From a virus (lineage: Duplodnaviria > Caudoviricetes), in IMG/VR virus record IMGVR_UViG_3300041986_000079, positions 22,938-86,937 of that record: 64,000 bases of DNA. One strand, written 5' to 3'. A model generated the notes under the pieces. The model had not been told where the DNA came from. It ran no database searches and saw only the letters and a program-made list of their open reading frames with translations. This document shows positions 37,471 through 52,262 of the stretch, piece after piece. The first letter of the stretch is position 1. The number at the start of each line of letters is the position of its first letter. Both the position numbers and the translations under genes were made by a program.

Positions 37471-37504
37471 CTACTGCTTAACGCTATTAAAAACTTTATA
37501 TAAT

Positions 37505-37822: not shown

Positions 37823-37841
37823 CATTTAACATATATTAAAC

Positions 37842-38960: not shown

Positions 38961-38988
38961 TTTTAACTAACATATAAAAGATATAACA

Positions 38989-39225
38989 ATGTATATTCAA
39001 GCAGATAATAATGGAATCAAAACTGTACCGGCTACTCAAAGCTGGAGATTGATTCATAATAGTGGTAAGGTTATTGATTTAATCGAAGCAGCTTACCAAA
39101 GTGAAACAGGTGGTTCAACAGAAGTATTTGTTGCTGCTACAAAAGCTGAATGTGAATCTGAGATTACTCGTTTAGATTTAGAGTTACCAAAGCATTTACA
39201 GCCTTCAGAAGAAGCACAAGCTTAA
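38989..39225 (+). CDS. hypothetical protein, possible tail-fibre chaperone (78 aa)
   Basis: Directly follows the fibre gene and is coupled (TAATG) to the next gene. Confidence 0.4.
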   Translation: MYIQADNNGIKTVPATQSWRLIHNSGKVIDLIEAAYQSETGGSTEVFVAATKAECESEITRLDLELPKHLQPSEEAQA

Positions 39226-39875: not shown

Positions 39876-40408
39876 ATAACATAATACATCAGATTTGGGT
39901 AGGTCCTAATGTGATGCAAGTGAGGGAAAGAAGGTGTTGTAGATTAGTTAAAAGCATGAATCCAACATGGGAATACATGTTTTGGACAGATGATAATCTA
40001 CCTGAGATGCCCAAAGAGATGCAAGAAGTATTTGATTACTTTGGACAAACTAAACACTACGCTTTTCAAGCAGATGTACTTAGAATGTTTTTGTTAAAAG
40101 AATACGGTGGTTTGTATATTGATGTTGATTTTGAACCAGTTAATTCATTTGATGCACTAAGAGAGTTAGACAACCTATTTTTAACTTGGGGACCAGAACA
40201 AAAACGTATAATGAATGGTGTAATAGGTGCTGATAAAGGTCATCCAGTTATAGAAGATCTTTGCAGTATGGTTAATATCAAGACAAAGTTTTATGGACCT
40301 GATTGGTTTGGAAGTAAGTTAGCTTCTCATGATATTAATACGATGATCTTTACTGACTTTTTAAAACAGTATGCTTTTCATCACCACCTTAATTCTTGGT
40401 CGTCATAA
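39872..40408 (+). CDS. GT32-type (DXD, sugar-binding) glycosyltransferase
   Basis: IIHQIW, YMFWTD, AFQADVLR, YGGLYIDVD, NGVIGA..GHP, GP. Confidence 0.85.
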   Translation: MNNIIHQIWVGPNVMQVRERRCCRLVKSMNPTWEYMFWTDDNLPEMPKEMQEVFDYFGQTKHYAFQADVLRMFLLKEYGGLYIDVDFEPVNSFDALRELDNLFLTWGPEQKRIMNGVIGADKGHPVIEDLCSMVNIKTKFYGPDWFGSKLASHDINTMIFTDFLKQYAFHHHLNSWSS

Positions 40409-40454
40409 TGATATAACGATTATAAAAGCAGGATTTGCTAAACTATTTTAAACA

Positions 40455-40769
40455 ATGACCAGAGAGAACCCAACCATCTCAGCATTCAAAGCGTGGATTT
40501 TCCCAAGTCTAGTATCTCTTTTAGGGATTATGATCTGGCAAGATGTCAACGAAGTTAAACAGGATGTAAAACTATTAATGGCACAGAGCAACGTCGATAA
40601 GACTAGGATTGATAATCTGGAACGCGCTGTATATAGTAAACTGGCATTACAAACACCTACCCCACCAAACAAGTTGCCTTCTCAAGTATTTTATCACGAG
40701 ATGGTGGCTATTAAACCTGACCACGATGAAGAAGACAACAGAATCAACAAGCTTTTGGACGATATTTAA
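40455..40769 (+). CDS. membrane protein, holin/spanin-like (104 aa)
   Basis: One N-terminal TM segment followed by a coiled coil; lies in the lysis cluster. Confidence 0.45.
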   Translation: MTRENPTISAFKAWIFPSLVSLLGIMIWQDVNEVKQDVKLLMAQSNVDKTRIDNLERAVYSKLALQTPTPPNKLPSQVFYHEMVAIKPDHDEEDNRINKLLDDI

Positions 40770-41013
40770 AGACAACAACGACTGGAATGAGAAGTCTATT
40801 ATAGGCTTTATGTCCTTTGCCGTAATGGTATTAATCGAAACAGTTGACGTTGTTACTGGATACTTTGGCCAAGAGTTAGTTATAAACGATTACATCTTTA
40901 ACGCTTTTGCTATTATTACATTAGGTTCTTTTGGTATCTCTGGTGCTGAAAACATCATGGGTAAGAAGACAAAAGACTCAAACAAAGAGGAAGATGTTCA
41001 CATGGAAGGATAA
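40726..41013 (+). CDS. holin-like protein with two TM segments (95 aa)
   Basis: SIIGFMSFAVMVLI and YIFNAFAIITLGSFGI, charged C-tail. Start moved to MKKTTES. Confidence 0.55.
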   Translation: MKKTTESTSFWTIFKDNNDWNEKSIIGFMSFAVMVLIETVDVVTGYFGQELVINDYIFNAFAIITLGSFGISGAENIMGKKTKDSNKEEDVHMEG

Positions 41014-41630
41014 TGAAAAATATAGTTATCGGCGTTATTATTACTATAGCGTTTTTTGTAGTTCTGACCCAGCGAGGATGTATGGGTCACTCAAATAGTA
41101 GACAACCAGACACTCTTGTTGTTACTGATACATTCTGGACTAAGCACGATAGTCTTATCGTTAGAGATGTCCCTACACCATACGAGGTTCCAGTACCTTT
41201 TGAGGTATTAAACACTCAGTATAAAGCTGATACAGCTTATCCCAAACTAAAGCAACAGTATGAAGACTTAGCTAAACGCTTTGCTTCAAGAAAGATTTAT
41301 ACAGACAGCGTTCATGTCGGTCAGTATGGTCATATACGTATAGTTGATACTGTTACTGAAAACAAGATTGTTGGACGTAGCTTTAGAGAAAACTATAAGA
41401 TTCCTGTTGTAAAAGAAACTAAAACGATTACTAAATACGATGATCCTAAACGACAAGTCTATGTTGGTGGTGGCCTTAACCTTACTAGCGGGGGTAACGT
41501 CCGAAGTGCTGAAGGCGGTATACTATACAAGACAAAGAAGGATCAAATATATGGTGCAAAAGTTAACATTGCCACGGATGGTACAACGTCTTTTGGCATA
41601 CAGACGTACTTTAAGATCGGAAAGAATTAA
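41013..41630 (+). CDS. membrane-anchored protein, possible spanin/lysis accessory (205 aa)
   Basis: N-terminal hydrophobic helix, coiled segment, beta-rich C-terminus; lies between holin-like genes and the endolysin. Confidence 0.45.
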   Translation: MKNIVIGVIITIAFFVVLTQRGCMGHSNSRQPDTLVVTDTFWTKHDSLIVRDVPTPYEVPVPFEVLNTQYKADTAYPKLKQQYEDLAKRFASRKIYTDSVHVGQYGHIRIVDTVTENKIVGRSFRENYKIPVVKETKTITKYDDPKRQVYVGGGLNLTSGGNVRSAEGGILYKTKKDQIYGAKVNIATDGTTSFGIQTYFKIGKN

Positions 41631-41646
41631 CCTAAACAAATAAACC

Positions 41647-41835
41647 ATGAGTATCTTATCATTCATTAAGGGACTATTCACAAGTCCAAAGAAGACTATC
41701 TTAGAAGAAGTCCAACCTATTGTAGAAGCTGTAAAAGAAGAGATCGTTGAGATATCTGATTCAGTTGCTGAGCAGATTGCTGAAGAAGCAGTAGCAAAGC
41801 CAAAGAGACGCTACTACAAGCGTAAGAAGAAGTAA
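41647..41835 (+). CDS. small protein with basic C-tail (62 aa)
   Basis: AACC-ATG start context; ends PKRRYYKRKKK. Confidence 0.55.
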   Translation: MSILSFIKGLFTSPKKTILEEVQPIVEAVKEEIVEISDSVAEQIAEEAVAKPKRRYYKRKKK

Positions 41836-41858
41836 AAATCACCTAACCACTATATAAT

Positions 41859-42695
41859 ATGTTATTAAGACTAGGATCTGAAGGAGAAGATGTAAAGAAG
41901 CTCCAGCAGTTTTTAGGTGTTGATGTTGTTGGTAAGTTTGGGCCAAAGACAGATGCTGCTGTAAAAGCATGGCAAGCTGCACATGGTCTTACTGCTGATG
42001 GTATTGTTGGTGATGGTACTTGGGCTAAGATGTTTCCATCTCAACCTCAAGCACCTGTCACCCAAGTTACAACACCCCCTGCTGCAACTTCCAGCTTCAA
42101 ACTAGATCGATTAAAAGGGCATGTACCTGATGCTGTTATAGCAGCTATTCCAGATACTGCTCGTTTATTTAATATTACTACACCATTACGCCTTGCCCAC
42201 TTTTTAGCTCAGTGTGGTCATGAGTCTGGTGGTTTTAGAGCTACTCAAGAAAATCTTAACTATTCAGCAAAAGGTTTGATGGGTATCTTTAAAAAGTATT
42301 TCCCAACAGCTGCTTTAGCTGCACAGTACGAACGCAAACCTGAAAAGATTGCAAACAGAGTTTATGCATCTCGTATGGGTAATGGTCCTGAAGCATCAGG
42401 AGATGGGTTTAAGTTCCGGGGACGAGGATTTATCCAGCTCACAGGTAAAGAAAACTATACTCGTTTTGATGCTACAGTTCCAGAAAACATTATTGCTAGT
42501 CCAGATCTTGTAGCTACAAAGTATGCATTAGCATCAGCAGCTTTCTTCTTTAACAGTAATAAGCTATGGGCTATCTGTGATAAAGGAGCTAATACAGCAA
42601 CAGTAACAGCAGTAACTAAACGAGTTAATGGTGGCACAATAGGCTTAGCAGATCGTATTAAACACTTTAATGAGTATTATCATCTATTATCATAA
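41859..42695 (+). CDS. endolysin: peptidoglycan-binding domain plus GH19-like glycoside hydrolase
   Basis: PG_binding_1 motifs LRLGSEGEDVKKLQ...FGPKT...ADGIVGDGTW. Catalytic part LAHFLAQCGHESG, ENLNYSA, FRGRGFIQLTGKENY, VTKRVNGG. Confidence 0.92.
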   Translation: MLLRLGSEGEDVKKLQQFLGVDVVGKFGPKTDAAVKAWQAAHGLTADGIVGDGTWAKMFPSQPQAPVTQVTTPPAATSSFKLDRLKGHVPDAVIAAIPDTARLFNITTPLRLAHFLAQCGHESGGFRATQENLNYSAKGLMGIFKKYFPTAALAAQYERKPEKIANRVYASRMGNGPEASGDGFKFRGRGFIQLTGKENYTRFDATVPENIIASPDLVATKYALASAAFFFNSNKLWAICDKGANTATVTAVTKRVNGGTIGLADRIKHFNEYYHLLS

Positions 42696-42698
42696 ACT

Positions 42699-43280
42699 AT
42701 GGCAAATCTAGTTGATTATTTAACACAACCGTTACGAAAACTATTTAATACTTCAGACTTTAAATCGGCTGTTAAACGATATGCAAAATCTGTATCACCA
42801 GTTAGCTATCCTTTTCAGTGGTATCCTGATGCAGGTTTAACAAAAGAAGGGCCTAAGTTTAAATATACTGACGGTACAGAACTTATATCATATCACATTA
42901 AAGGTATTAGTTCAATCAGTGATAATGCTAATAGTTTTTATCAATACTTAGGTACAGTAGTTATAAATACGTCACAGGGATATCCTTCTATATTTCCAGG
43001 AAATGTTACAGGTATGTTCCAAAGCGGAACTGGTGCTGATATTGTAACAAGCCCTTTAGCTCTTGGTGGGCTAATAGAAATAGATGGTGTTCATGTACCA
43101 TTAAATAGTTTTAAGATTTCTTTATACAACTACAACAATCCAGAAGGTTTTGCTTGGTATGCTCTTGTTGTAGAAGGTGGCGTTGATGCTAGTCCAGGTT
43201 TCTTAACTGCATTAATGTCTTATGATTTTGAGTTTTTATTACCAAACTTTGTTCCAGCTCCAACTATTTTCCAAGACTAA
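42699..43280 (+). CDS. hypothetical protein, possibly structural (193 aa)
   Basis: Clean ORF coupled to the endolysin; no motif recognised. Confidence 0.55.
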   Translation: MANLVDYLTQPLRKLFNTSDFKSAVKRYAKSVSPVSYPFQWYPDAGLTKEGPKFKYTDGTELISYHIKGISSISDNANSFYQYLGTVVINTSQGYPSIFPGNVTGMFQSGTGADIVTSPLALGGLIEIDGVHVPLNSFKISLYNYNNPEGFAWYALVVEGGVDASPGFLTALMSYDFEFLLPNFVPAPTIFQD

Positions 43281-43281
43281 T

Positions 43282-43374
43282 ATGGCACATCCATTCAATC
43301 CTGAGAATGCTCCTGTTACAGGAACATCACCACAAGTTCAAGCAATCATTCAAACTATCAAAGAAAAGAAATAA
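43282..43374 (+). CDS. 30-aa peptide MAHPFNPENAPVTG..., not in ORF track
   Basis: Starts 1 nt after the previous stop and ends in a TAATG overlap with the next ORF. Confidence 0.4.
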   Translation: MAHPFNPENAPVTGTSPQVQAIIQTIKEKK

Positions 43375-43505
43375 TGGCAAAAGCAAAAGGATCTACTGAA
43401 GCAAAGAAGATCGTCTTCGGTACTAGACGTAAAGGAAAGCATGCAAAGACTGCTGGACCAAAAGCTAAAGCAGTTAAAAAGAAATATGTTGGACAAGGGC
43501 GTTAA
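43374..43505 (+). CDS. 43-aa highly basic peptide ending KKYVGQGR, not in ORF track
   Basis: TAATG-coupled, very Lys-rich with a single acidic residue. A C-terminal YxGQG(R) is, to my recollection, seen in small basic phage peptides. Confidence 0.6.
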   Translation: MAKAKGSTEAKKIVFGTRRKGKHAKTAGPKAKAVKKKYVGQGR

Positions 43506-43537
43506 TCGCTCTTTTTCCATGTATAAACCATAAGTAT

Positions 43538-44071
43538 ATGAAAGCATTATTATTTGTTGTCTGGAGTATTGTAGCATCTGCATTATCGATACAGAGTTAC
43601 TTTATATACTCACACTTCTTTGCTCCTCAGAACATTGTTAATCTTATAGGACCAGGAGAAAGTATAAACGTTTCTTCTGTTGAGAACAAGATTATTATGG
43701 GTAACCTAGCTGGTAATCGTAATCTTGCTTTTGGTGTTAAGAATATTATGGAAGAGTTCTTACAAGAACAAGAGTATGTTATTAATCCATATGCTACAAA
43801 GAAGATCGAGATCGAGATTGTCTATCTTGATGTATTAAAGACTCAGTCTAACTTATCAGTATTTCATAAGAATACAGACGCTATAGTTATACGAATGAGA
43901 GGTAAGTTAATTGAAGATGATAAAGTAAAGAAGACGGTTATAGTTGAAGAGTCTGCTGAGGAAGTATCAATGGCTGCATTAGTTATAGATGAAGGTGGTA
44001 AGTTTAACCAAACTAATCTATCGTCAGCCTTAAAAAAGTCTTGTAACACACTGATTAACAAACTATTATAA
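43538..44071 (+). CDS. exported CsgG/LptE-like protein, paralog of 47089-47820 (177 aa)
   Basis: N-terminal signal/TM. GVKNIMEEFLQE and KFNQTNLSSALKK align with GVTNIVVEYLEE and KFNQSTIGTTTKK of the 243-aa protein. Confidence 0.55.
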   Translation: MKALLFVVWSIVASALSIQSYFIYSHFFAPQNIVNLIGPGESINVSSVENKIIMGNLAGNRNLAFGVKNIMEEFLQEQEYVINPYATKKIEIEIVYLDVLKTQSNLSVFHKNTDAIVIRMRGKLIEDDKVKKTVIVEESAEEVSMAALVIDEGGKFNQTNLSSALKKSCNTLINKLL

Positions 44072-45846
44072 TGAAAAAAGCACTATTACTTGTCACAATA
44101 TTATTATGTTTTTGTGACATCGTTCAAGGTCAAAACATTAAGTTAAGACTACAAGATGATTCAACTTCAGTGAATACTGTAGGAACAGTTATCAATAAAG
44201 GAGACGAGTTTATAGTATCAGTAAAAGCAGATGGTAACGGTAATGCAACAGCTAGATCGCTTTATTTCGATTTTGAGTACCAAAACACAGCGTTTGAGCT
44301 TGTTACTGTTACAAATACGGGAACAGGTGGCAACGGTGGGATACTTCCTTACGGTTCTAGTATTACTATGGATTGGTACACTTATCCTGGTTATACGTGG
44401 ACATCTTCGCAACAGAATACCACTCCAGACGGTAATACTAACTATAATCGTGCTGCTTATTCTTTTACGGCTGGTGGACCTAAAACTATTCTTAGGGTCT
44501 ATTTAAACTGGGCTAGTCCAAATGGTATGCCGTATTCAGGAGGTTGGGATGATTTAATTCGTCTTAAGTTTAAGTTGAAGACAACAGCTCCAGGTTATGC
44601 ATGGGATCCTATTAAGATGAACTTTGCTGCTGCATTTAATTCAAACGGTACAGCAGGTTCAACTGAGATGACAATACCTTTAACTAGTGTTATATATCTT
44701 GACCCTACAGCTACTAAGTATGTTAATGCAACTATAGAGACTAATCCTAACATCGATAACTTTAGTTTACATCGTGTTTTATTCTTAAACCCAACAACAA
44801 ACGTTGGTATTATTGCTGATGCAACTGCTGCTGGTGCAATAAACATTGATCAATCAAGATTAGAACCTAATACAGAGTATCGAGTGATGATGATGTTAAA
44901 CATGGATAGTATTCATAACTTATATGCTGCTGCTGTTACAGTATCTGATTATACTACAGCACAAGCTGAGTTTGTACAACAAAACTTAGATGGTACTTAT
45001 AAAGGACAATCTATTATTACAGGAGCTGGTTACTTAGCTGCTGATGTTAACAGATCAAAAACATTTGATGGTGGTGACTTAACAAAGTTATACTCACAAG
45101 TAATTGGTGTTGATAAGTTGTTTACTTTACCATCAAACTACGCTGCAGGAACAGATATGTATGCTTCAGTTCCAACGTTTACTGATAGTACGTTTAATGC
45201 ATTAACACCAGCAAACTGGAAAGATGTTACAAACAGTTATGTCACTTTCAAGACTGGTCTTATAGGTCAAAATAAACCATTAAAGCTTAAGTTCTTGATC
45301 CCTGGTGATATAAACCGTTCACACTCATCTCAGATGATGATTAATGGTACTATTGCAACAAACGCTGCTGTATCATTAAAGACTAACTTAACAGCAAACA
45401 AGACGTTAAACAGAACGGTTGCTGCTTCAAACATTACAGTAAGCTTAGCTAACCAGACTCTAACATCTAATACTATCGAGATACCAATAAAGGTTAATAC
45501 AAATGGTAATAAGTTATCAGGTTTACAGTTTGAGTTTAGATATAATCCTGCTTCTATTAAGTTCGAAGAGATTATGAACCAAATGCCAAATACATGGTAT
45601 GCTTTTGCTGATAATACCAAACCTGGCGTTATTCGTTTTGGTGCATTAGATAAAGCTCTCAACTCATCTGTTACAGGAGAACTAGTACCGTTTAAGCTTA
45701 AGTTCAGTGCAATAACAAACGGTTTAGATATGAATACCTTGATTAAAGTAAGTCCAGTAATGGATGCAGCATCAAGTACAGGTTCTCAGTTAGGTATTAC
45801 ATTGAACTCAGATACTATTAAGATTACTGGATACAACAACTTTTAA
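44071..45846 (+). CDS. secreted cohesin-dockerin-cohesin-like protein (591 aa)
   Basis: Signal peptide. Cohesin-like GDEFIVSVK...LYFDFEYQNTAFELV, dockerin-like AADVNRSKTFDGGDLTKL (45031-45108) and PGDIN, then a second cohesin-like IEIPIKV...LSGLQFEFRYNPASIKF. Confidence 0.7.
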   Translation: MKKALLLVTILLCFCDIVQGQNIKLRLQDDSTSVNTVGTVINKGDEFIVSVKADGNGNATARSLYFDFEYQNTAFELVTVTNTGTGGNGGILPYGSSITMDWYTYPGYTWTSSQQNTTPDGNTNYNRAAYSFTAGGPKTILRVYLNWASPNGMPYSGGWDDLIRLKFKLKTTAPGYAWDPIKMNFAAAFNSNGTAGSTEMTIPLTSVIYLDPTATKYVNATIETNPNIDNFSLHRVLFLNPTTNVGIIADATAAGAINIDQSRLEPNTEYRVMMMLNMDSIHNLYAAAVTVSDYTTAQAEFVQQNLDGTYKGQSIITGAGYLAADVNRSKTFDGGDLTKLYSQVIGVDKLFTLPSNYAAGTDMYASVPTFTDSTFNALTPANWKDVTNSYVTFKTGLIGQNKPLKLKFLIPGDINRSHSSQMMINGTIATNAAVSLKTNLTANKTLNRTVAASNITVSLANQTLTSNTIEIPIKVNTNGNKLSGLQFEFRYNPASIKFEEIMNQMPNTWYAFADNTKPGVIRFGALDKALNSSVTGELVPFKLKFSAITNGLDMNTLIKVSPVMDAASSTGSQLGITLNSDTIKITGYNNF

Positions 45847-45858
45847 TATCTAACCACT

Positions 45859-46221
45859 ATGAAGAATACATTATTGTTATTATTACTTATCACACTTGTG
45901 TTTGCATGCTCTGATCTTGAGAAGTTTGAAGATACACCAATAAATCTAGGCGCAAAAGCTACTTCAACAGAAATATTGAGTGCAAGTTCAGTAGGTGGAA
46001 AGGTTACTGTATTGTTTGCAGTAACACCTGGAGCTAAATACTCTGTACAAGTTTACTCTTTTGCTGCTATTGAACCGGTAAAAACTTTACCATTAACTGC
46101 AGATACTGAGATTACAACAAAGATATACGACTTTACTGACCTACCAGATGGGTTATACGACTTAACATTAACAGATATATCTGGTGTATCTATTAGAAAA
46201 CCTTTAGTTATTAAACGATAA
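45859..46221 (+). CDS. lipoprotein consisting of a T9SS C-terminal-sorting-domain-like Ig fold (120 aa)
   Basis: Lipobox LVFA-C. C-terminus DFTDLPDGLYDLTLTDISGVSIRKPLVIKR follows the type A T9SS CTD pattern (GxY...Kxxxx). Confidence 0.6.
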   Translation: MKNTLLLLLLITLVFACSDLEKFEDTPINLGAKATSTEILSASSVGGKVTVLFAVTPGAKYSVQVYSFAAIEPVKTLPLTADTEITTKIYDFTDLPDGLYDLTLTDISGVSIRKPLVIKR

Positions 46222-46226
46222 ACAAC

Positions 46227-46532
46227 ATGTCAGAAGAAGCAGAAAACACAGGAGGCTCATTAAAGAGCATCTTAATCGGATTAGCAAGTACTATCGCATT
46301 AGGTGTTGGTGGTTATGTTACAAAACAATTAACAGGTGAGGGTGATGAACCAGCTGCAGCAACAACTACAGCAGCTCCTGTTATTAATATCAATCAAGCA
46401 GCGGCTGCTCCAGCACCTGTAGCTAAAACTATTATTGTTAACAAGACTGCAGGTCCAGCACAAGCAGCTCCAGCTCCAAAGCCTAAGGCTAAAACAGCAA
46501 AAGAAGAGTTAGAAGAAGCCCCTAAATGGTAA
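46227..46532 (+). CDS. single-pass membrane protein with Ala/Pro-rich tail (101 aa)
   Basis: TM ILIGLASTIALGVGGYV followed by an AAAAPAP linker. Confidence 0.6.
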   Translation: MSEEAENTGGSLKSILIGLASTIALGVGGYVTKQLTGEGDEPAAATTTAAPVININQAAAAPAPVAKTIIVNKTAGPAQAAPAPKPKAKTAKEELEEAPKW

Positions 46533-47092
46533 TGGAAAATAGTCAAGCAACAGGGTTTAAAGACCTGTTAAATCAAATGATGACAAGACGATGGTTGATA
46601 ACAGCTATTGTTCTAGGAGGTTTTATGCTTATTATTGGTGGTATATTCATAGCTATTGCTCAGAATACTGCTATTGCTGGTGAGTGGAAAGAGTTGTTAT
46701 TACTTTTACTAGGAGCTTTTATTGGCTCTTATGGTAAGATTATTGACTATTGGTTCTCTGATACAGACAAAGACAAGATGTTAGTCCAGAAAATGGATGA
46801 GGAGGACGGTGTAAGTCTATCTAATACTTCAGATATGCCTCCAGCTCCACAGATTAATAATCCATTAGAATCAGTAGTATCACTACCAAAAACTGAAGCA
46901 AAACAAACTGGCACTGAAATCGATGAAGACGGTGACGGAGTTATGGATGGTTTAGATATTGACGGTGATGGTAAGGTTGATGTATACTTTGCACATAGAC
47001 AATGTGAACACGTATGGGACGATGTTGACAACGATGGTGATGAAGAGTGCGTTAAGTGTGGTAAAATAAAAGACAATGAAGAAACTGTATGA
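46532..47092 (+). CDS. two-TM membrane protein with DxDGDG Ca-binding-like loops and a Cys/His motif (186 aa)
   Basis: Two hydrophobic helices, DEDGDG, DIDGDG and DVDNDGD loops, and C-E-H-V-W...C-V-K-C. Start moved to the TAATG-coupled ATG. Confidence 0.6.
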   Translation: MENSQATGFKDLLNQMMTRRWLITAIVLGGFMLIIGGIFIAIAQNTAIAGEWKELLLLLLGAFIGSYGKIIDYWFSDTDKDKMLVQKMDEEDGVSLSNTSDMPPAPQINNPLESVVSLPKTEAKQTGTEIDEDGDGVMDGLDIDGDGKVDVYFAHRQCEHVWDDVDNDGDEECVKCGKIKDNEETV

Positions 47093-47820
47093 AAAAGTTA
47101 AGCGTATTCTTAAGTGTTTGTTTTATCTTCTTTCTAGCTTTCAGTCATAAGACTCAAGCACAGATAGCAGCAACAAGAACAGAGTCTTATACTGCATCTT
47201 TTGAGAAGAAGATAAACATAGATTCTTTAATGGACTATGAAGGTCCAAAGATTCCTATACAGTTACTATCTTTAGGTATAAACGAAGATGTTTATGCTGC
47301 TTATCCTGAGTTAAAAGATAAACGTGTTGGTCTTGGTGTTACAAACATTGTTGTTGAATACCTTGAAGAGACAAACCGTTTTACTTTTACTGAGGATAAG
47401 GCTGAGATAAAGAACAGAATGGTAAAGCAGTTTCAAGCATCACAGTCTGGTATCACAGAAAATAAGTTAGATGGTAGAGGCAAGATTAAGCTTGCTCAGT
47501 ATTTTGTTTATATTGAGGTCTATGATTTTTCCGTTTCTGAAGATGAATCATTATCTTTGAAAGACGGTGTAAAACAGACAGTTGTAACTCGCATGGGTTT
47601 ACAGGTTAAGTTTGTTAACGCTGAGACGGGAGAGTATTTTACAGGCTCAGGAATGGGAGAAGCTAAGACTGTTAGGGAAGCAACACTAATGAACGATGCT
47701 AACTTTGCTGATATTAAGTTTAATCAATCCACGATTGGTACAACGACTAAGAAAGCGCTTGAAAACGCTGCTAGTAAGATTGTGGTACGGATGATTAAGA
47801 AAAAGATTTTCACTAAATAA
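47089..47820 (+). CDS. CsgG-like (curli secretion channel fold) exported protein (243 aa)
   Basis: Signal peptide. RFTFTED...E, AQYFVYIEVYDFS and MGLQVKFVNAETGE..TGSGMGEA follow the CsgG/TolB-N pattern. Confidence 0.7.
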   Translation: MKKLSVFLSVCFIFFLAFSHKTQAQIAATRTESYTASFEKKINIDSLMDYEGPKIPIQLLSLGINEDVYAAYPELKDKRVGLGVTNIVVEYLEETNRFTFTEDKAEIKNRMVKQFQASQSGITENKLDGRGKIKLAQYFVYIEVYDFSVSEDESLSLKDGVKQTVVTRMGLQVKFVNAETGEYFTGSGMGEAKTVREATLMNDANFADIKFNQSTIGTTTKKALENAASKIVVRMIKKKIFTK

Positions 47821-47827
47821 ACCAACC

Positions 47828-48166
47828 ATGTTAGAAAAACTAATCATTGCTGGCACTATAGCAATAGCTGCTAGTATTTACCCTGCGTATAAGATATACG
47901 AAGGTGCTAAGATACCAATGTATCAAACACGTATCTCTAATCTAGAACATCAGATGGAGATTGTTAAGTTAACAGAGACTGACCCTGCAAAGCGTTATGT
48001 AAAGCTTTCAAAGCTTGAGGGTAAGATTCTTAAGGTACGTACAAAGATTAAGGCACGTCAAAAGATTAAAGCTCTTGAAGCCAAATGGGACTATCAAGAT
48101 GAGATGCTTAAGTTAAAGCGTTTTCAAGTTTCTGTTGATTCAACTATAAAGATTGAACCGAAGTAG
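47828..48166 (+). CDS. membrane-anchored basic coiled-coil protein (112 aa)
   Basis: N-terminal TM followed by a Lys-rich helical region. Confidence 0.55.
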   Translation: MLEKLIIAGTIAIAASIYPAYKIYEGAKIPMYQTRISNLEHQMEIVKLTETDPAKRYVKLSKLEGKILKVRTKIKARQKIKALEAKWDYQDEMLKLKRFQVSVDSTIKIEPK

Positions 48167-49488
48167 TGAAATGGTTAGGGATTATCATGTTGTTATTATT
48201 GTGGAACACGAGCAATGCTCAAGTGTTGTCACAAACATATGTTGATCCTTGTTCAGGAAAAGTATTAACGGTAACTGTACCTATCGCAAGTGGGTCAGTT
48301 ACTGTTGTTTACAGAGGTCAATACAAAGTAGTTACAGCAAACGATATAACTACAGGTGCTTTAACAGCATGGTTAAATATGTTGACAACAGCATATCCAT
48401 GTCCTGAAACACAACAAGTAGTTAATCAAGTAGTTACACAGACAGTTAATACTGCGGTTAGTGCAGCTGTTAATCAAGCGACTGCAAGTGCAACCGCTGC
48501 TGCTACTGCCGCTGCAACATCTGCGGCGACAAGTGCTGCTACTAGTGCAGCAACAAGTTCTGCAACGTCAGCTGCTACATCAACAGCTAGTTCTGCTGCA
48601 TCCGCAGCTGCATCTTCTGCAGCAAGTAGTACTCCAGCACCAAGTGCAACAAGTACTAGCAGTTCATCATCATCTAGTTCATCGTCTAGTTCTTCAGAAA
48701 GTAGTAGTTCAAGTTCTTCTTCTGAAACAAAGAGTGAAACCAAAAGCGAATCAAGTAATGAGTCAAAGTCAGAAAGCAAAGAAGAAAGCAAGAGTGAGTC
48801 CAAGTCTGAGAAAAAAAGTGAAGATAAGAAAAGCAGTAAGAGCTCTGCCAAATCCAGTGCCCGTATTAATCCTATCTTATATAACTCTGATCTTACTTCT
48901 CTATTATCTGATGATAATAGTTTTTCTCAGATAATATCTGTTGGTATGTCTCAGTCTTCAATGACTGGAGCAGACTCATGGGGTGTTACCAGTATGATCT
49001 GGTCTACTTTTAATCAGTTTGCTTTATCTGGTAGATATACAAAGATGAACTTTGCAAAAGGTCAGTTATCTCATATAACAAATTATGGTATTACAGGAGT
49101 TTACTTATCAGGAAACTACGTAGCATTTGCTACTGGTGCTTATATCAAGCCTTTAAAAAATAATAAAGGTATCTTTGGTATAAACGAGACTATTAGTTAT
49201 GCAATGAACACAGTAAGTAGTAGTTTGCTTATGTTCTACAGTAAGCCTATTGTACTTAGTAAAAGAGTATCGATAGCACCAACAATCACAGCATCAGCTT
49301 TTCCAGTTGTTGCATCAGAAACAGGCGTTGATATAACTCCAACATTTAATGCCATGACAGGATCAAGTTTTGATCTTAATCTAACTAAACGTTTTAAACT
49401 TAACTGCGGTCTAACACTTGCTTTTAGTGAGCAGAGCATTAGACCTAACAGTTATATGTTTATGATTGGAACAAAGCTTAATCTTTAA
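48166..49488 (+). CDS. secreted protein with Ala/Thr/Ser stalk and C-terminal outer-membrane beta-barrel-like domain (440 aa)
   Basis: GTG start in a TAGTG overlap, signal peptide, Cys pair (DPC...PCP), low-complexity stalk. C-terminal ~210 aa of alternating-hydrophobicity strands ending MFMIGTKLNL. Confidence 0.55.
   Translation: MKWLGIIMLLLLWNTSNAQVLSQTYVDPCSGKVLTVTVPIASGSVTVVYRGQYKVVTANDITTGALTAWLNMLTTAYPCPETQQVVNQVVTQTVNTAVSAAVNQATASATAAATAAATSAATSAATSAATSSATSAATSTASSAASAAASSAASSTPAPSATSTSSSSSSSSSSSSSESSSSSSSSETKSETKSESSNESKSESKEESKSESKSEKKSEDKKSSKSSAKSSARINPILYNSDLTSLLSDDNSFSQIISVGMSQSSMTGADSWGVTSMIWSTFNQFALSGRYTKMNFAKGQLSHITNYGITGVYLSGNYVAFATGAYIKPLKNNKGIFGINETISYAMNTVSSSLLMFYSKPIVLSKRVSIAPTITASAFPVVASETGVDITPTFNAMTGSSFDLNLTKRFKLNCGLTLAFSEQSIRPNSYMFMIGTKLNL
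48451..48860 (+). repeat. degenerate coding repeats (Ala/Thr/Ser, then Ser-Glu-Ser-Lys) forming a low-complexity stalk
   Basis: Imperfect GCAACAAGT/GCTGCTACT and AAGAGTGAA-type units encoding (ATSA)n, (S)n and (KSES)n. Confidence 0.8.
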
Positions 49489-51031
49489 TCACGTAACCTC
49501 TTTTATCTACTGATAAGATTCTGTTACCATCAAAGACAGACATTTGTTTAGCATGATACTGCTCTAGTACTTGATCATTAAAGTAGTTAAACATACTACC
49601 TTTAACACCCAAGAAGAAAGCTTTATCTGTATAGACACTGCAGCGATCTTCTGCGTCAGTAAGTACTAAGCTGTTCTCTTGTGATTTAATAATATGGTTT
49701 ACTACTTTTGTAATACTTGTACCACCCATATCATCTAAAGAAGCAATAGCAAAGTCTGTTGTTTTTAGAGCATGAACATCTTGGTTAAAAGAATAAAGCT
49801 TGTTAAGCATGTTGTTCTTTTTCATTACAAGAGCAATGGCTTTTGCAAACTCAAGCTTAGTCAAGCCTCTTCCATCAACGTCTTTAACACCACATCCTTC
49901 GGACATCGAACCAGATATATCGATATAAAGATTAATCTTACCTTTACGCTCAACGTTTCTTGTTGTAATATCCTCTGGGAATATGTTTCTAAGCTTTGGA
50001 TGAAGCATTGCGTACTCTTCTAAGCCATCAAAGTTGCCTGACTCGAACAAAGACTCATGTGTAATGCGTTCTTGCCCTGAGAAGTAATTCTTTGACTTAT
50101 CTAAGATCATCTTGATGTTGTTCTTTAGTACAGAATCATTCATCTTGATTTTCTTTAGAGACTCGATTGCTCTTTCTATCTCATGCTTAGTCATACTACC
50201 AATACCGGTACTTTTATTCCAAGCTTCTTCAAGCTCTTCGTCACCAATATTTTCAGTTAGTTCATTGATGTTTTGAGCTGCATCATGCATTTCTTCCTCT
50301 AACTTATCTCTAGTTTGCTTTAAAGCTTTATCAATAGCTTTCTCCATCTTCTTCTGATCCTTTCCAGAACCTTTACCAGAACCACTTTGACCTTGAGCTT
50401 GATCATCTTGATCTCCGTCTTGGTTATCATCACTATCACCATCTGATTGATTCATCTGGTTCTTCATCTCTTCATGAGCATCAGGATCTTGTTTCTTTAG
50501 TCTTAACATAAAGTAAGTAAGATATGTCATCATACTTTGAGTAAACATACCAGACTTAACATTAGAACCTTCAGTTAAGATCTTTAAGCTTGGATCATTT
50601 GCTAACTCAAGAAGTTTGTAACGCATCTGATTTTTTTCATTGCGAGCTTTGAAGTCAATCTTATCAATAGGTTTATTAAACATATTAAAGATATCGTTCT
50701 TTAGTGATGAAGGTATTGATTGATACGCTTCAGTCATTTCTTCAACTGAAAAGTGCCAGTTCTCACGCCCTTTCATCTTGACAATCTTTTCTGCTGTCTG
50801 TGTAAGAGCACCATGATTACTTCCACTACTTGTATAACCAGGGATAAAACCTTTCTTTACAAACTCATTTAATCGATGAGCATCTATATAGTGAATATAT
50901 GGCTCTACTAACTCAGGTTTTTTATACGAACCAATGATACTTGTAAATCGGGAAGAGCCAGAAAAATCTAGCTCCCCCTTCTTTACTTTCTCCATGATTG
51001 TAAACACATTTTTATACTGTTTCTTAGCCAT
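49478..51031 (-). CDS. vWA (MIDAS) domain protein, partner of the MoxR ATPase (517 aa)
   Basis: YIDISGSM (DxSxS), GGTSI, LVLTDAED; acidic/Gln linker; directly downstream of the AAA+ gene. Confidence 0.85.
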   Translation of the reverse strand: MAKKQYKNVFTIMEKVKKGELDFSGSSRFTSIIGSYKKPELVEPYIHYIDAHRLNEFVKKGFIPGYTSSGSNHGALTQTAEKIVKMKGRENWHFSVEEMTEAYQSIPSSLKNDIFNMFNKPIDKIDFKARNEKNQMRYKLLELANDPSLKILTEGSNVKSGMFTQSMMTYLTYFMLRLKKQDPDAHEEMKNQMNQSDGDSDDNQDGDQDDQAQGQSGSGKGSGKDQKKMEKAIDKALKQTRDKLEEEMHDAAQNINELTENIGDEELEEAWNKSTGIGSMTKHEIERAIESLKKIKMNDSVLKNNIKMILDKSKNYFSGQERITHESLFESGNFDGLEEYAMLHPKLRNIFPEDITTRNVERKGKINLYIDISGSMSEGCGVKDVDGRGLTKLEFAKAIALVMKKNNMLNKLYSFNQDVHALKTTDFAIASLDDMGGTSITKVVNHIIKSQENSLVLTDAEDRCSVYTDKAFFLGVKGSMFNYFNDQVLEQYHAKQMSVFDGNRILSVDKRGYVIKD

Positions 51032-51044
51032 GGCTTTCTCTTAT

Positions 51045-52262
51045 TTAGAATGGATCTACATTAGCATCTGCAGGTGATGTAGAGGTTGTGTAAGTACTGT
51101 GTTGAATAGTACCAGATAAAGGCATGCTTGACTCACTCATATCTCCTTCAATCTCATTTAATAACTCTACTGCTAAATATTCTTCTGCTTCATCTTGATT
51201 AGCAAGAACGTGGTTCTCAAGTACAATAGTCATTGTAGCATCGATAGTTTGAGCATCATCATCTGCAAGTTTACCATTTGAGATATAAGTTGCTGTTAGA
51301 TCTTCGATCTCTTTTACAGCAAGAGATAAACTAGTTTGATCATGATAAGACTTAAGCATATCAATCTTAGACATGATGATCTTCATCTCCATTGATGTAA
51401 GCATGTCATTAAGACGAGTACTAGCTGCTTTATCAACCATCATCTCAGCTAACTTAACTAAAGCTTTGTCAACACTAACATCCCAGATATAGTGAATACC
51501 TGCTGCAAGACGAGGAACAAAGGTTAAAGTACGGTCAGTTGTCTTGTCATAAGATACCTCGATAAACTTCTCGATACGGCTTGGTGATAACACTACATCC
51601 TTTAACTCTTGTGAGTTAGGGATATTAAGACTGATGTTTTGTACATAGTCTTTACCACCTTTGCTATGATATTTAACCATATCACCCGCAGAGATACGAG
51701 ATACTTGCATCTTGATCATGAAACGATCCCAGAAAGGTGAGTTAATCTCGTCTTTTGGAATCTCATTACAAGTTGCAACAAACAACTTCCACTTGCATGG
51801 TACTTTGTTCTTACCGTTAAATAAGAATCGCTCGTTCATAATACCCAACAAAGAGTTACGGATACCAGAACTAGCTTTATCTACCTCATTAATGATGATG
51901 ATCTCAGCCTCAGTGATAGGAGCGTTAAGCTCATACTTATTGTTTGTAAACAACGCTTCTAAGTCTGGCATACCCTTCACCTCTGATTGCTTAGTACCCT
52001 CGTCAGTCTCTAAGATATAGATCTTTGACATGAAGTTTTCAGCAGTTGCTAACTTATTCTCAATCAACCATGCTTTTGCATACTCTACTACAGTCTTGGT
52101 CTTACCAACACCAGGACGACCCTCTAATAATACTGGTAACTGAGCTGACTCTGCTAATGCTAGAGTCTTGAACACTTCTTCTTTGTTCATTAAAGAAGTA
52201 GTGATTTTACGTACTTCTTGAGTTTTTACTTTTGCTAGTGACTTTGCTTTTACTGTTGACAT
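51045..52262 (-). CDS. MoxR/RavA-like AAA+ ATPase (405 aa)
   Basis: LLEGRPGVGKT, IIINEVDKA, LLGIMNER, VATCNE, FWDRF. Confidence 0.88.
   Translation of the reverse strand: MSTVKAKSLAKVKTQEVRKITTSLMNKEEVFKTLALAESAQLPVLLEGRPGVGKTKTVVEYAKAWLIENKLATAENFMSKIYILETDEGTKQSEVKGMPDLEALFTNNKYELNAPITEAEIIIINEVDKASSGIRNSLLGIMNERFLFNGKNKVPCKWKLFVATCNEIPKDEINSPFWDRFMIKMQVSRISAGDMVKYHSKGGKDYVQNISLNIPNSQELKDVVLSPSRIEKFIEVSYDKTTDRTLTFVPRLAAGIHYIWDVSVDKALVKLAEMMVDKAASTRLNDMLTSMEMKIIMSKIDMLKSYHDQTSLSLAVKEIEDLTATYISNGKLADDDAQTIDATMTIVLENHVLANQDEAEEYLAVELLNEIEGDMSESSMPLSGTIQHSTYTTSTSPADANVDPF

What the first reader, a model, noticed from the sequence alone, without database searches (positions are those of the whole stretch)
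43538..49488. Eight-gene phage-encoded cell-envelope assembly cassette (two CsgG-like proteins, cohesin/dockerin scaffold, T9SS-CTD lipoprotein, stalked beta-barrel)
Seen: eight consecutive + strand genes, each with a signal peptide, lipobox or TM segment. They are tightly coupled (TAATG at 44069 and 46530, ATGA at 47089, TAGTG at 48164; other gaps 5-12 nt), and none looks like a capsid, tail or lysis protein. Established: CsgG forms an oligomeric outer-membrane secretion pore for curli; cohesin-dockerin pairs are Ca-dependent scaffolding interactions; T9SS CTDs route Bacteroidota proteins to the surface; OM beta-barrels are inserted by BAM. Inference: the phage builds its own surface complex or export channel in the infected host. 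Possible roles are receptor masking or superinfection exclusion, cell aggregation, or export of a phage factor. I know of no characterised phage system with this combination, so this is the best candidate for an undescribed system in the window.
Basis: partly seen in the sequence, partly recalled or inferred. Interest (0 to 1): 0.9.

Follow-up and report, generated by a model that had tools for sequence, protein, structure and literature searches.

The report
Phage-borne exported envelope protein module
An uncultured crAss-like phage of freshwater Flavobacterium-type bacteria carries eight back-to-back genes for exported proteins, which probably build a structure in the infected cell's outer envelope; the block is widespread in related phages, but nobody has tested what it does.

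Summary
All eight products carry a signal peptide, lipobox or membrane segment.

- **P6:** CsgG-fold protein (Foldseek E 7e-9; VIA Z 11.7), predicted to self-associate head to tail (ipSAE 0.73 vs 0.00). It has no lipobox and no curli partner genes.
- **P1:** probably a short, distant paralogue of P6. This is not proven.
- **P2:** has a Pfam cohesin domain. Dockerin support is weak.
- **P3:** a lipoprotein with a sub-threshold T9SS-CTD likeness. It occurs only where P2 lacks a CTD.
- **P8:** a small Cys-pair domain, a long low-complexity linker and a roughly 12-stranded outer-membrane barrel.

A core of P1, P2, P4, P6 and P8 is co-conserved in over 100 IMG/VR contigs. It also occurs in the unrelated cultured Flavobacterium myophage immuto, so the block moves between phage lineages. 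It lies beside, or interleaved with, the endolysin and holin-like genes.

Function is untested. My best guess (0.4) is an outer-membrane platform that re-dresses the infected cell's surface. The main rival (0.25) is outer-membrane disruption at lysis.

This scan noted the same module several times on other DNA. The nearest published precedents are pelagiphage CsgG/curli clusters and Cryophage T9SS cargo.

The parts
43538..44071 (+). P1, 177 aa, exported small alpha/beta protein. Probably a short, distant paralogue of P6, with weak YajG (Lipoprotein_16) and TraT likeness.
   Evidence: Pfam Lipoprotein_16 sub-threshold in 9/17 family members and TraT in 3/17. Two collinear motifs are shared with P6: NxxLxFGVKNIxEExL and KFNQ(S/T)..KK. 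hhalign probability is only 7%. Atlas neighbours are viral clusters in which 30-52% of members carry Lipoprotein_16.
44071..45846 (+). P2, 591 aa, secreted (signal peptide then Gln). Cohesin-like N-terminal region, a conserved EF-hand/dockerin-like loop at residues 325-336, and a C-terminal cohesin domain at 467-585. This copy has no T9SS CTD.
   Evidence: Pfam Cohesin E 4e-9, 2 stretches. Family-wide: Cohesin 17/21, Por_Secre_tail 8/21, Dockerin_1 4/21 with best E 4e-4. D325, N327, D336, G412 and D413 are invariant.
45859..46221 (+). P3, 120 aa lipoprotein (lipobox LVFAC) with a small beta-rich domain that ends like a T9SS CTD.
   Evidence: Invariant Cys17. Weak Por_Secre_tail in 11/19 relatives, best E 0.0017, with no hit for the window's own copy. 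Present in 42/42 loci with CTD-less P2 and absent in 18/20 loci with long P2.
46227..46532 (+). P4, 101 aa. Invariant MSEE N-terminus, one TM segment, an Ala/Pro/Gln-rich extended region and an invariant C-terminal Trp.
   Evidence: Alignment A5 of 22 sequences, including immuto gp016.
46526..47092 (+). P5, 188 aa. Two TM segments (holin-like topology, N-in and C-in by the positive-inside rule) plus an Asp-rich, Cys-containing tail that some relatives lack.
   Evidence: Sequence. Only the two-TM core is kept in L034, L077 and L081. A different two-TM protein (a homologue of 40726-41013) takes its slot in L045 and L080. No Pfam or PHROG holin hit.
47089..47820 (+). P6, 243 aa, secreted CsgG-superfamily protein. 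It is the most conserved gene of the module and is predicted to form a head-to-tail, ring-type oligomer.
   Evidence: AF2 pLDDT 66. Foldseek finds CsgG 4uv2, 4uv3 and 6l7c at E 7e-9 to 3e-7. VIA Z 11.0-11.7 for CsgG against 8-10 for LptE, PelC and FlgT. The P6 profile reaches proteins that carry Pfam CsgG above threshold. Mean column identity is 70%. A four-copy model gives ipSAE 0.73 against a best control of 0.00.
47828..48166 (+). P7, 112 aa. N-terminal TM segment plus a charged helical region (i-spanin-like topology). Present in only a minority of related loci.
   Evidence: Sequence. Detected in about 8 of 80 loci. No family hit.
48166..49488 (+). P8, 440 aa. Signal peptide, a roughly 60-aa N-terminal domain with two conserved Cys, a roughly 150-aa Ala/Ser/Thr then Lys/Glu/Ser low-complexity linker, and a C-terminal outer-membrane barrel of about 12 strands.
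   Evidence: AF2: strands at 237-439 with pLDDT 70-87. Foldseek: FapF E 1e-7, PcoB, autotransporter barrels, and KdgM and NanC at TMt 0.66-0.70. Alignment A3. Immuto gp018 is a full-length homologue (hhalign 100%). No Pfam family.
41859..42695 (+). Endolysin (PG_binding_1 + GH19), genetically linked to the module.
   Evidence: Pfam and PHROG phrog_181 E 3e-69. Within 5.6 kb of P6 in 64/80 loci, and between P6 and P8 in 12 of them.
40726..41630 (+). Two co-conserved membrane proteins upstream of the endolysin: a 95-aa two-TM holin-like protein (40726-41013) and a 205-aa TM-anchored beta-rich protein (41013-41630).
   Evidence: Co-conserved with the endolysin and module. The two-TM gene lies inside the module in at least 10 loci. 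No family hits.

Best explanation
This is a mobile accessory module of phages that infect Flavobacteriia and related Bacteroidota. It is expressed in the infected cell and delivered by the host's own export routes: Sec, lipoprotein sorting, BAM, and T9SS where a CTD is present.

It installs an outer-membrane-associated platform. P6 forms a CsgG-type ring under or in the outer membrane, and P1 is a small paralogous subunit. P8 is an outer-membrane barrel carrying a tethered N-terminal domain on a long flexible linker. P4, with P5 and P7 where present, is anchored in the inner membrane and reaches into the periplasm.

The platform serves binding proteins rather than enzymes. These are the cohesin protein P2 with its dockerin-like Ca loop, the CTD-like lipoprotein P3, and, in relatives, lectin, PA14, ConA-like and GEVED proteins. 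The net effect is to re-dress the infected cell's surface late in infection. The most likely purposes are to make cells stick (capturing new hosts) or to mask receptors from other phages or from the phage's own progeny.

**Shown:** gene order, export signals, the folds of P6 and P8, the cohesin domain, co-conservation, and transfer between phage lineages.
**Inferred:** that the parts form one assembly, where each part sits, and the purpose.
For: - **Export signals.** All eight products carry them, and Gln follows the cleavage site as in Bacteroidota (Q-rule as described in PMC10367356).
- **P6.** CsgG fold. The profile links to Pfam-CsgG proteins, and its bacterial relatives are lipoproteins. 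Self-association is modelled at ipSAE 0.73 against 0.00 in the best of 3 controls; runs agree in at least 81% of contacts and partner pLDDT is at least 76. In the tool's calibration, 20 of 30 solved homomers and 1 of 23 solved monomers reached the mark. Solved CsgG rings exist, so this pass may reflect likeness only. The invariant residues of P6 fall in that interface.
- **P8.** Outer-membrane barrel.
- **Binding modules.** P2 has a cohesin domain. In 8/21 relatives and in immuto gp015, the cohesin protein carries a T9SS CTD above Pfam's threshold. P3 complements CTD loss. Genes flanking the module in relatives encode C-type lectin, Laminin_G_3, PA14, GEVED and collagen-like secreted proteins.
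- **Mobility.** The core P1, cohesin protein, P4, P6 and P8 is shared by crAss-like contigs and the myophage immuto. In immuto it sits among nucleotide-metabolism genes, 8 kb from the endolysin.
- **Precedents.** Phage CsgG/curli clusters are proposed to aggregate cells or exclude superinfection (PMC9599517). Phage-encoded T9SS cargo has been reported (PMC7468147).
Against: - No experiment or expression timing is available. RNA-library contigs cannot show transcription.
- Only P6-P6 contact was modelled. No contact between different proteins was tested.
- P6 lacks CsgG's lipid anchor, and its long hairpin is charged, so a membrane pore is doubtful.
- With an even number of strands, both ends of P8's barrel face the periplasm. 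Its tethered domain may therefore never reach the surface.
- The window's own P2 has no CTD, so how it would leave the periplasm is unknown.
- The persistent adjacency to, and interleaving with, endolysin and holin-like genes fits a lysis role at least as naturally.
- No PADLOC defence or exclusion family matched.
Confidence: 0.4

Rival explanations
1. The module is an extended lysis cassette that breaks or detaches the outer membrane, replacing spanins. P8 (outer-membrane barrel with a long tether and N-terminal domain) and the inner-membrane proteins P4 and P7 would link the two membranes. P5 and the 40726-41013 product would act as holin and antiholin. The P6/P1 ring would destabilise or perforate the outer membrane once the endolysin has cut the wall.
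For: - The GH19 endolysin lies within 5.6 kb of P6 in 64/80 loci. It sits between P6 and P8 in 12 loci, and a two-TM holin-like gene sits inside the module in at least 10.
- 38 of 80 endolysin-centred loci carry module genes, on either strand.
- P5 and P7 have holin-like and i-spanin-like topologies.
- No canonical spanin pair was seen near the endolysin.
- An earlier follow-up on another genome (e1-5873986) reported the module in the place where near-identical phages carry spanin-like genes. Here, some endolysin relatives without the module do have small lipoproteins next to the endolysin.
Against: - Five to eight genes that include cohesin, lectin and T9SS-CTD binding modules are far more than lysis needs.
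- In immuto the module is 8 kb from the endolysin, among early-type genes.
- P7 is missing from most loci.
- P8 is not a lipoprotein and nothing resembles an o-spanin.
- Lysis regions are known landing sites for envelope morons (lambda bor lies next to Rz; from my own knowledge), so adjacency is weak evidence.
- No holin or spanin family hits.
Confidence: 0.25
2. The module is an auxiliary uptake or efflux channel. The P8 porin-like barrel and the P6 CsgG-like ring would open a solute path through the outer membrane, for example for nucleotides, oligosaccharides or cofactors. The secreted binding proteins and nucleases would feed it to support phage replication.
For: - The P8 barrel resembles the 12-strand specific porins KdgM and NanC (TMt 0.66-0.70). 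Atlas neighbours include KdgM/OmpL and Porin_O_P clusters.
- Secreted Endonuclease_NS genes flank the module in relatives and in immuto.
- In immuto the module follows the ribonucleotide reductase and nuclease genes.
- An import role was one hypothesis for pelagiphage CsgG (PMC9599517).
Against: - Barrel similarity is generic: FapF, PcoB and autotransporter barrels score as well.
- The tethered N-terminal domain, P4 and the cohesin protein have no role in this picture.
- No substrate-binding or inner-membrane transporter gene is present.
Confidence: 0.1
3. The products are virion or injection components whose hydrophobic N-termini are not export signals.
For: P2-type Ig-like and cohesin domains also occur on phage fibres and decoration proteins. 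PHROG gave one faint 'virion structural protein' hit for P4 (E 0.05).
Against: - There are canonical signal peptides with Gln at +1, a lipobox, an outer-membrane barrel fold and a T9SS CTD in relatives.
- The module is shared by a podovirus-type crAss-like lineage and a myophage whose structural genes are unrelated.
- It lies outside the structural block.
Confidence: 0.05

Closest known systems
Pelagiphage type VIII secretion (curli) clusters: CsgG, CsgF, CsgA/B with FecR, adenylate cyclase and histidine kinase (PMC9599517)
   Same: A multi-gene, phage-encoded envelope module built around a CsgG-type protein. It is conserved as a block, transferred between podovirus and myovirus lineages, absent from the host, and of untested function (aggregation, exclusion or import have been proposed).
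   Different: No CsgF, CsgE or curlin repeat protein is present here (no Pfam hits at E<=1). P6 is not a lipoprotein and does not reach Pfam CsgG by itself. The partners here are a 12-strand barrel, a cohesin protein, a CTD-like lipoprotein and small membrane proteins. The hosts are Bacteroidota and the module is tied to T9SS and to the lysis genes.
E. coli CsgG nonameric curli channel (PDB 4uv3, 4uv2, 6l7a)
   Same: It is the best structural match for P6 (Z 11-11.7, 155-180 residues aligned). The loop between beta1 and alpha1 is the most conserved part. Self-association is predicted to be head to tail.
   Different: Sequence identity is 12-14%. P6 has no lipobox Cys. Its constriction-loop equivalent is charged (YPELKDKRVGLG) rather than the Tyr/Asn/Phe type. 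Its hairpin is rich in Glu, Asp and Ser, so membrane insertion is unproven.
Phage-encoded T9SS cargo in 'Cryophage' (PMC7468147)
   Same: A Bacteroidota phage encodes proteins with T9SS C-terminal sorting domains, including a PA14 protein, presumably secreted through the host's system. Relatives of this module carry CTD-bearing cohesin proteins and a PA14 neighbour.
   Different: That report lists individual variable cargo genes, not the conserved CsgG-like, barrel and P4 core. The window's own P2 has lost the CTD.
Two-component spanins (lambda Rz/Rz1) and holin-endolysin cassettes
   Same: Position next to the endolysin. Includes an inner-membrane-anchored helical protein (P7), two-TM small proteins (P5 and the 40726-41013 product) and a lipoprotein (P3). 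The architecture could bridge the two membranes (P4 and P8 linkers).
   Different: No o-spanin-like small Pro-rich lipoprotein is paired with P7. P7 is mostly absent. The module is much larger and contains binding domains. There are no family hits.
Ring-plus-barrel outer-membrane machines: PelBC, LptDE (PDB 9h80, 5ixm)
   Same: A CsgG/LptE-fold protein works with an outer-membrane barrel. P6 matches PelC and LptE at Z 8-9.4.
   Different: P8's barrel (about 12 strands) is much smaller than PelB or LptD. No P6-P8 contact was tested.
Envelope morons and exclusion proteins: lambda Lom and Bor, T5 Llp, F-plasmid TraT
   Same: Mobile-element-encoded outer-membrane barrel or lipoproteins that alter the cell surface. 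Three P1 relatives show faint TraT hits.
   Different: Those are single genes. The hits here are sub-threshold and the present module is a multi-protein set.

Membership tests
CsgG family (curli channel, Pfam PF03783) | CsgG alpha/beta fold | tested here: met
   The P6 AF2 model has CsgG as top hit: Foldseek E 7e-9, probability 1.0, TM 0.40-0.45; VIA Z 11.0-11.7, rmsd 3.5-4.1 over 157-170 residues, above LptE and PelC at Z 8-10.
CsgG family (curli channel, Pfam PF03783) | Sequence match to PF03783 above the gathering score | tested here: not met
   No Pfam hit for P6 at E<=1, and the P6 profile finds no PDB CsgG. There is a transitive link only: the P6 profile hits proteins (E 1e-14 to 1e-17) that themselves carry PF03783 above threshold.
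CsgG family (curli channel, Pfam PF03783) | N-terminal lipid anchor (lipobox Cys) | tested here: not met
   P6 and all 14 aligned phage homologues have an SPI-type signal ending ..AQ with no Cys. Distant bacterial relatives do have lipoboxes.
CsgG family (curli channel, Pfam PF03783) | Cyclic oligomer (nonamer) | tested here: inconclusive
   A four-copy model passes (ipSAE 0.73, best control 0.00) with a heterologous head-to-tail interface. Stoichiometry and ring closure were not tested, and solved CsgG rings may bias the model.
CsgG family (curli channel, Pfam PF03783) | Two transmembrane beta-hairpins that form the pore | tested here: inconclusive
   The model has long strands at 138-177 and 183-199, but the hairpin sequence (DFSVSEDESLSLKDG...) is charged and invariant.
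CsgG family (curli channel, Pfam PF03783) | Curli partners CsgF, CsgE, CsgA/B in the cluster | tested here: not met
   No such Pfam, NCBIfam or PHROG hits among P1-P8.
Cohesin-dockerin system | Cohesin domain (PF00963) | tested here: met
   P2 scores 37.2 bits against a cut-off of 24.1, in 2 stretches. 17/21 relatives match, as does immuto gp015.
Cohesin-dockerin system | Dockerin domain (PF00404) in a partner or in the same protein | tested here: inconclusive
   No hit in any window protein. 4/21 P2 relatives have sub-threshold hits, best E 3.9e-4. A conserved EF-hand-like loop DVNRSKTFDGGD occupies P2 residues 325-336. P5's Asp-rich tail gave no dockerin hit and is probably cytoplasmic.
T9SS cargo (type A CTD, PF18962) | C-terminal sorting domain above the Pfam threshold | tested here: not met
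   The window's P2 and P3 have no hit at E<=1. It is met in relatives: 8/21 P2 homologues (best E 2.4e-10) and immuto gp015 (34.6 bits against 27). In the P3 family, 11/19 members have sub-threshold hits.
Two-component spanin | i-spanin (N-terminal TM plus periplasmic coiled coil) paired with an adjacent or embedded small o-spanin lipoprotein | tested here: not met
   P7 has the i-spanin topology by inspection, but the next gene, P8, is a 440-aa barrel protein without a lipobox. P3, the only lipoprotein, is four genes away. P7 is absent from about 70 of 80 loci.
Holin | Match to a known holin family, or demonstrated hole formation | tested here: inconclusive
   P5 and the 40726-41013 product have two-TM, charged-tail topology but no Pfam or PHROG holin hit. 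Function is not testable here.
Type Va autotransporter / FapF-type barrel | 12-strand C-terminal barrel with an N-terminal passenger or periplasmic domain joined by a linker | tested here: inconclusive
   The barrel matches FapF (E 1e-7) and NalP, BrkA, Hbp and EspP (E 1e-6 to 3e-5), but equally PcoB, KdgM and NanC. There is no Pfam autotransporter or Fap hit, and the linker's path was not resolved (pLDDT below 50).

The most novel reading that the evidence does not exclude
The module is a self-contained viral outer-membrane export and anchoring machine. A non-lipidated CsgG-type ring (P6, with P1) docks on a 12-strand barrel (P8) and is energised or positioned by small inner-membrane proteins (P4, P5). 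It exports and displays a cohesin-dockerin adhesin scaffold (P2, P3 and lectins) on infected Bacteroidota. This would be a new class of virus-encoded surface-remodelling secretion system, distinct from curli/T8SS and only optionally dependent on the host T9SS.
Probability: 0.15. Interest if true: 0.85.

Novelty: new variant of a known kind. Interest (0 to 1): 0.62.

Why it matters
Phages of Bacteroidota are abundant in lakes, oceans and guts, yet how they open or alter the host envelope is largely unknown. Here a 5-8 gene block takes about 6 kb of a genome estimated at about 126 kb (86.9 kb held, about 69% complete). It is kept in over 100 phage contigs and has crossed between unrelated phage lineages, so it must pay its way.

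If it re-dresses the cell surface, it gives a testable route by which viruses change aggregation, particle attachment and phage-phage competition in freshwater Flavobacteriia. If it is the missing outer-membrane step of lysis in these phages, it would be a new lysis mechanism.

Either way, P6 is a compact, highly conserved, non-lipidated CsgG-type ring that is worth a structure. The cultured phage immuto and its Flavobacterium host make experiments feasible.

Tried and rejected
- **Phage records (DNA):** blastn of the whole cassette against GenBank phage records found nothing.
- **Phage records (protein):** tblastn of P1, P2 and P8 against the same records found nothing. Only P6 found immuto. 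The other immuto homologues needed pairwise or profile comparison.
- **PDB sequence searches:** the P6 and P1 profiles and the P2 sequence gave nothing useful.
- **P1 against P6 by hhalign:** probability 7%, so paralogy rests on two short collinear motifs.
- **P3 against the CTD of long P2 proteins:** the P3 HMM matched only the signal peptide. The idea that P3 is a split-off CTD is therefore not supported by sequence, only by complementary presence and absence.
- **P3 profile against immuto gp015:** no match.
- **Pfam on the P8 family:** only low-complexity noise.
- **PADLOC:** one low-complexity hit, so no support for a known defence or exclusion family.
- **Promoter and terminator scan:** sigma-70-type sites were no more frequent than in shuffles, and Bacteroidota promoters are not covered. 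A promoter-motif search failed on pattern syntax and was not repeated.
- **Species-genome scan:** only 6 hits, all MAG contigs that look phage-derived. No cellular operon of this kind was found.
- **RNA libraries:** the stretch is present in freshwater metatranscriptome libraries from several studies. One 15.9-kb contig spans both strands at uniform depth, which probably reflects phage DNA. Contigs cannot show transcription, and uncovered flanks mean nothing.
- **Endolysin relatives without the module:** neighbours are diverse and some include small lipoproteins. This is only a weak echo of the 'spanin's place' idea.
- **Tool limits:** Both structure-prediction jobs went to P6 and P8, so P1, P2, P3 and P8's N-terminal domain were not folded separately.

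Full report
**What is there**

The window is part of an 86.9-kb linear IMG/VR virus record, estimated to be about 69% complete. An earlier follow-up in this scan identified it as a crAss-like phage from its 4866-residue virion RNA polymerase (note e1-5848987). I did not re-test that.

Eight + strand ORFs fill 43538-49488: P1 177 aa, P2 591, P3 120, P4 101, P5 188, P6 243, P7 112 and P8 440. The quoted junctions are all real: TAATG at 44069 and 46530, ATGA at 47089 and TAGTG at 48164. The remaining gaps are 12, 5 and 7 nt.

Each product has a signal peptide, lipobox or TM segment. P2, P6 and P8 are cleaved before a Gln, the pattern described for Bacteroidota signal peptidase I substrates and already noted in Porphyromonas phage proteins (PMC10367356). 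A crude hydrophobicity screen flags 11 of 65 ORFs in the window, and seven of them are the consecutive P1-P7. The clustering is not chance.

The block sits in a + strand island (37505-49488) between two - strand replication blocks. It lies directly downstream of a GH19 endolysin with a PG_binding_1 domain at 41859-42695.

**The individual proteins**

*P6.*
- It has no Pfam, NCBIfam or PDB sequence hit.
- Its AF2 model (pLDDT 66) matches CsgG first: Foldseek E 7e-9, probability 1.0, and VIA Z 11.0-11.7 over 157-180 residues. LptE, PelC, FlgT and Cj1090c follow at Z 8-10.5.
- A profile of 15 phage P6 sequences finds only 304 clusters among 1.84 billion representatives. These include kinase fusions and a 458-aa protein that carry Pfam CsgG above threshold; three caspase-fused relatives do not. 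They also include roughly 230-245-aa bacterial proteins with lipoboxes.
- JGI labels many P6 homologues CsgG.
- P6 is therefore a CsgG-superfamily protein, but an atypical one. It has no lipid anchor and no curli partners, and the loop that forms the constriction in CsgG is a charged, invariant YPELKDKRVGLG.
- It is by far the most conserved gene of the block: 57-100% identity where neighbours fall to 25-50%, with a mean column identity of 70%.
- A four-copy model passes the tool's mark. ipSAE is 0.73 against 0.00 in the best of three controls; runs agree in at least 81% of contacts and partner pLDDT is at least 76. In calibration, 20 of 30 solved homomers and 1 of 23 solved monomers reached the mark. 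The interface is heterologous and head to tail, as a ring needs, and is made largely of the invariant residues. Because CsgG rings are solved, this may reflect likeness rather than proof.

*P1.*
- It shares with P6, in the same order, an N-terminal motif (GNRNLAFGVKNIMEEFL against DKRVGLGVTNIVVEYL) and a C-terminal motif (GGKFNQTNLSSALKK against IKFNQSTIGTTTKK).
- Nine of 17 relatives give sub-threshold Lipoprotein_16 hits and three give TraT hits.
'Second CsgG-like protein' is probable but unproven.

*P2.*
- It has a Pfam cohesin domain above threshold, as do 17 of 21 relatives.
- A conserved EF-hand/dockerin-like loop at 325-336 has invariant D325, N327 and D336.
- Dockerin_1 appears only below threshold, in 4 of 21 relatives.
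- Eight of 21 relatives, and immuto gp015, add a T9SS C-terminal sorting domain above threshold. The window's copy has none.

*P3.*
- It is a lipoprotein with an invariant Cys17. Its relatives give faint Por_Secre_tail hits (11 of 19, best E 0.0017).
- It is present in 42 of 42 loci with a CTD-less P2 and absent from 18 of 20 with a long P2.
- A P3 HMM does not recognise the CTDs of the long P2 proteins. The complementarity is real, but a simple gene-fission origin is not shown.

*P4.* It has an invariant MSEE start, one TM segment, an Ala/Pro/Gln-rich stretch and an invariant C-terminal Trp.

*P5.* Its conserved core is two TM segments, with both ends probably cytoplasmic. The Asp-rich tail that may have suggested a dockerin is dispensable in relatives.

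*P7.* It has an i-spanin-like topology but is present in only about 8 of 80 loci.

*P8.*
- It is modelled with a small N-terminal domain (four strands, two helices, two conserved Cys), a low-confidence linker of variable length, and about 12-13 strands at 237-439 with pLDDT 70-87.
- Foldseek finds outer-membrane barrels throughout: FapF E 1e-7; PcoB; the autotransporter barrels NalP, BrkA and Hbp; KdgM and NanC at TMt 0.66-0.70.
- It belongs to no Pfam family, and its sequence relatives are all unnamed viral or metagenomic proteins.

**Distribution and context**

- P6 homologues occur on at least 104 IMG/VR stretches, on contigs up to 139 kb. P2 homologues occur on 48 loci, largely the same contigs.
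- Across 80 loci the commonest orders are: holin-like, TM protein, endolysin, P1, P2, P3, P4, P6, P8; or P1-P6, endolysin, P8. P5, P7 and P3 are optional.
- Only six hits appear in one genome each of 185,579 species. All are MAG contigs labelled Flavobacterium, Sediminibacterium, Bacteroidetes or, in one case, Thiobacillus. The family looks phage-specific, with Bacteroidota hosts.
- The cultured Flavobacterium myophage immuto (160 kb) carries a reduced version among ribonucleotide reductase and nuclease genes, 8 kb from its endolysin: C-type lectin gp013, gp014, cohesin+CTD gp015, P4-like gp016, P6-like gp017 (55% identity), P8-like gp018 (hhalign 100%) and P1-like gp019.
- The block has therefore moved between unrelated phage lineages. 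The pelagiphage curli clusters have done the same (PMC9599517).
- In divergent relatives the block is followed by further secreted proteins with C-type lectin, Laminin_G_3, PA14, GEVED or collagen repeats. Sometimes it is preceded by a secreted Endonuclease_NS.

**Link to lysis**

The GH19 endolysin is within 5.6 kb of P6 in 64 of 80 loci. It lies upstream in 46, between P6 and P8 in 12 and downstream in 6. The two-TM holin-like gene lies inside the block in at least 10 loci.

Starting from the endolysin instead, 38 of 80 related loci carry module genes, on either strand. Loci without the module have varied neighbours, some of them small lipoproteins.

This linkage is the main argument for a lysis role. 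An earlier follow-up on another genome reached a similar idea (note e1-5873986). However, lysis regions are also classic sites for envelope morons, and immuto breaks the linkage.

**Interpretation**

The parts point to the outer envelope and to binding rather than catalysis. I therefore favour (0.4) an outer-membrane platform that re-dresses the infected cell's surface, for adhesion or aggregation or for receptor masking.

Outer-membrane disruption at lysis is the main rival (0.25). A solute channel (0.1) and virion parts (0.05) trail behind.

Nothing here shows that the proteins form one complex, that P6 is a pore, or that P8's tethered domain reaches the surface. With an even strand number, both barrel ends face the periplasm unless the linker threads the pore, as it does in autotransporters.

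PADLOC gave no support for a known exclusion system. The stretch is present in freshwater metatranscriptome libraries, but contigs cannot prove transcription.

**Comparison and novelty**

The closest published systems are:
- the pelagiphage T8SS/curli clusters (CsgG, CsgF, CsgA/B; PMC9599517);
- the T9SS-CTD cargo genes of 'Cryophage' (PMC7468147).

This module shares with them the idea of a phage installing envelope or secretion parts. It differs in composition: no CsgF or CsgA, a non-lipidated CsgG-like ring, a new barrel family, and a cohesin scaffold. It also differs in host phylum and in its tie to the lysis genes. I found no paper describing it.

This scan has flagged the same module on several other genomes. 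It is recurrent and real, but not unique to this window. I rate it a new variant of a known kind, with moderate-to-high interest because it is widespread, mobile, experimentally tractable through immuto, and functionally open.

Noticed in passing
window 42699-43537: The stretch between the endolysin and P1 holds a 193-aa ORF with no family hits, a 30-aa ORF and a 43-aa highly basic ORF (MAKAKGSTEAKK...). Relatives that are 82-95% identical in the endolysin and 94-96% in P1 (L002-L004) lack the 193-aa ORF; in L004 P1 follows the endolysin after about 170 nt. It looks like a recent insertion.
   Followed up: partly
window 40726-41630: A 95-aa two-TM protein (FKDNNDWNEKSIIGF motif) and a 205-aa TM-anchored beta-rich protein are co-conserved with the endolysin. 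These are candidate holin and lysis accessory genes with no family hit. The two-TM gene moves into the module in some relatives.
   Followed up: partly
proteins P0218, P0225, P0246 (caspase fusions); P0229, P0245 (kinase fusions): Distant cellular relatives of P6 are fused to Peptidase_C14 caspase domains or to Ser/Thr kinase domains. The CsgG-like domain thus serves as an envelope module in signalling and protease proteins.
   Followed up: no
protein P0175 (198 aa, metagenomic): A chimeric ORF that joins the N-terminal half of a P6-like protein to pieces of a P1-like protein. It is either a recombinant or decayed copy, or an assembly artefact. The P6 HMM also weakly matches its P1-like part, which supports P1/P6 kinship.
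   Followed up: partly
window 49478-52262 (- strand): A 517-aa acidic protein and a 405-aa AAA-type ATPase (phrog_19600) converge on the end of P8. They are co-conserved only in the closest relatives (L002-L004, L030, L034). Function unknown.
   Followed up: no
L060:1579-2199, L129:5193-5771 and neighbours: Endonuclease genes sit just upstream of the module in some crAss-like relatives (L060: Endonuclease_NS with a hydrophobic, signal-like N-terminus) and in immuto (annotated nuclease gp012; export signal not checked). Variable lectin, PA14, GEVED and collagen-like secreted proteins follow the module in others.
   Followed up: partly
window 37449-52000, run X1: In one freshwater 'metatranscriptome' library a single 15.9-kb contig at uniform depth of about 404 spans convergent genes on both strands. 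This suggests phage DNA carried into the RNA library rather than a transcript.
   Followed up: no
L133 (contig CAIWBA010000291.1, 254 kb) and L146 (IMG/VR contig, 254 kb): The module (L133) and a related endolysin (L146) also occur on contigs of about 254 kb, one of them binned as an uncultured Bacteroidetes MAG. These are either jumbo phages or prophage-bearing bacterial contigs. Not resolved.
   Followed up: no
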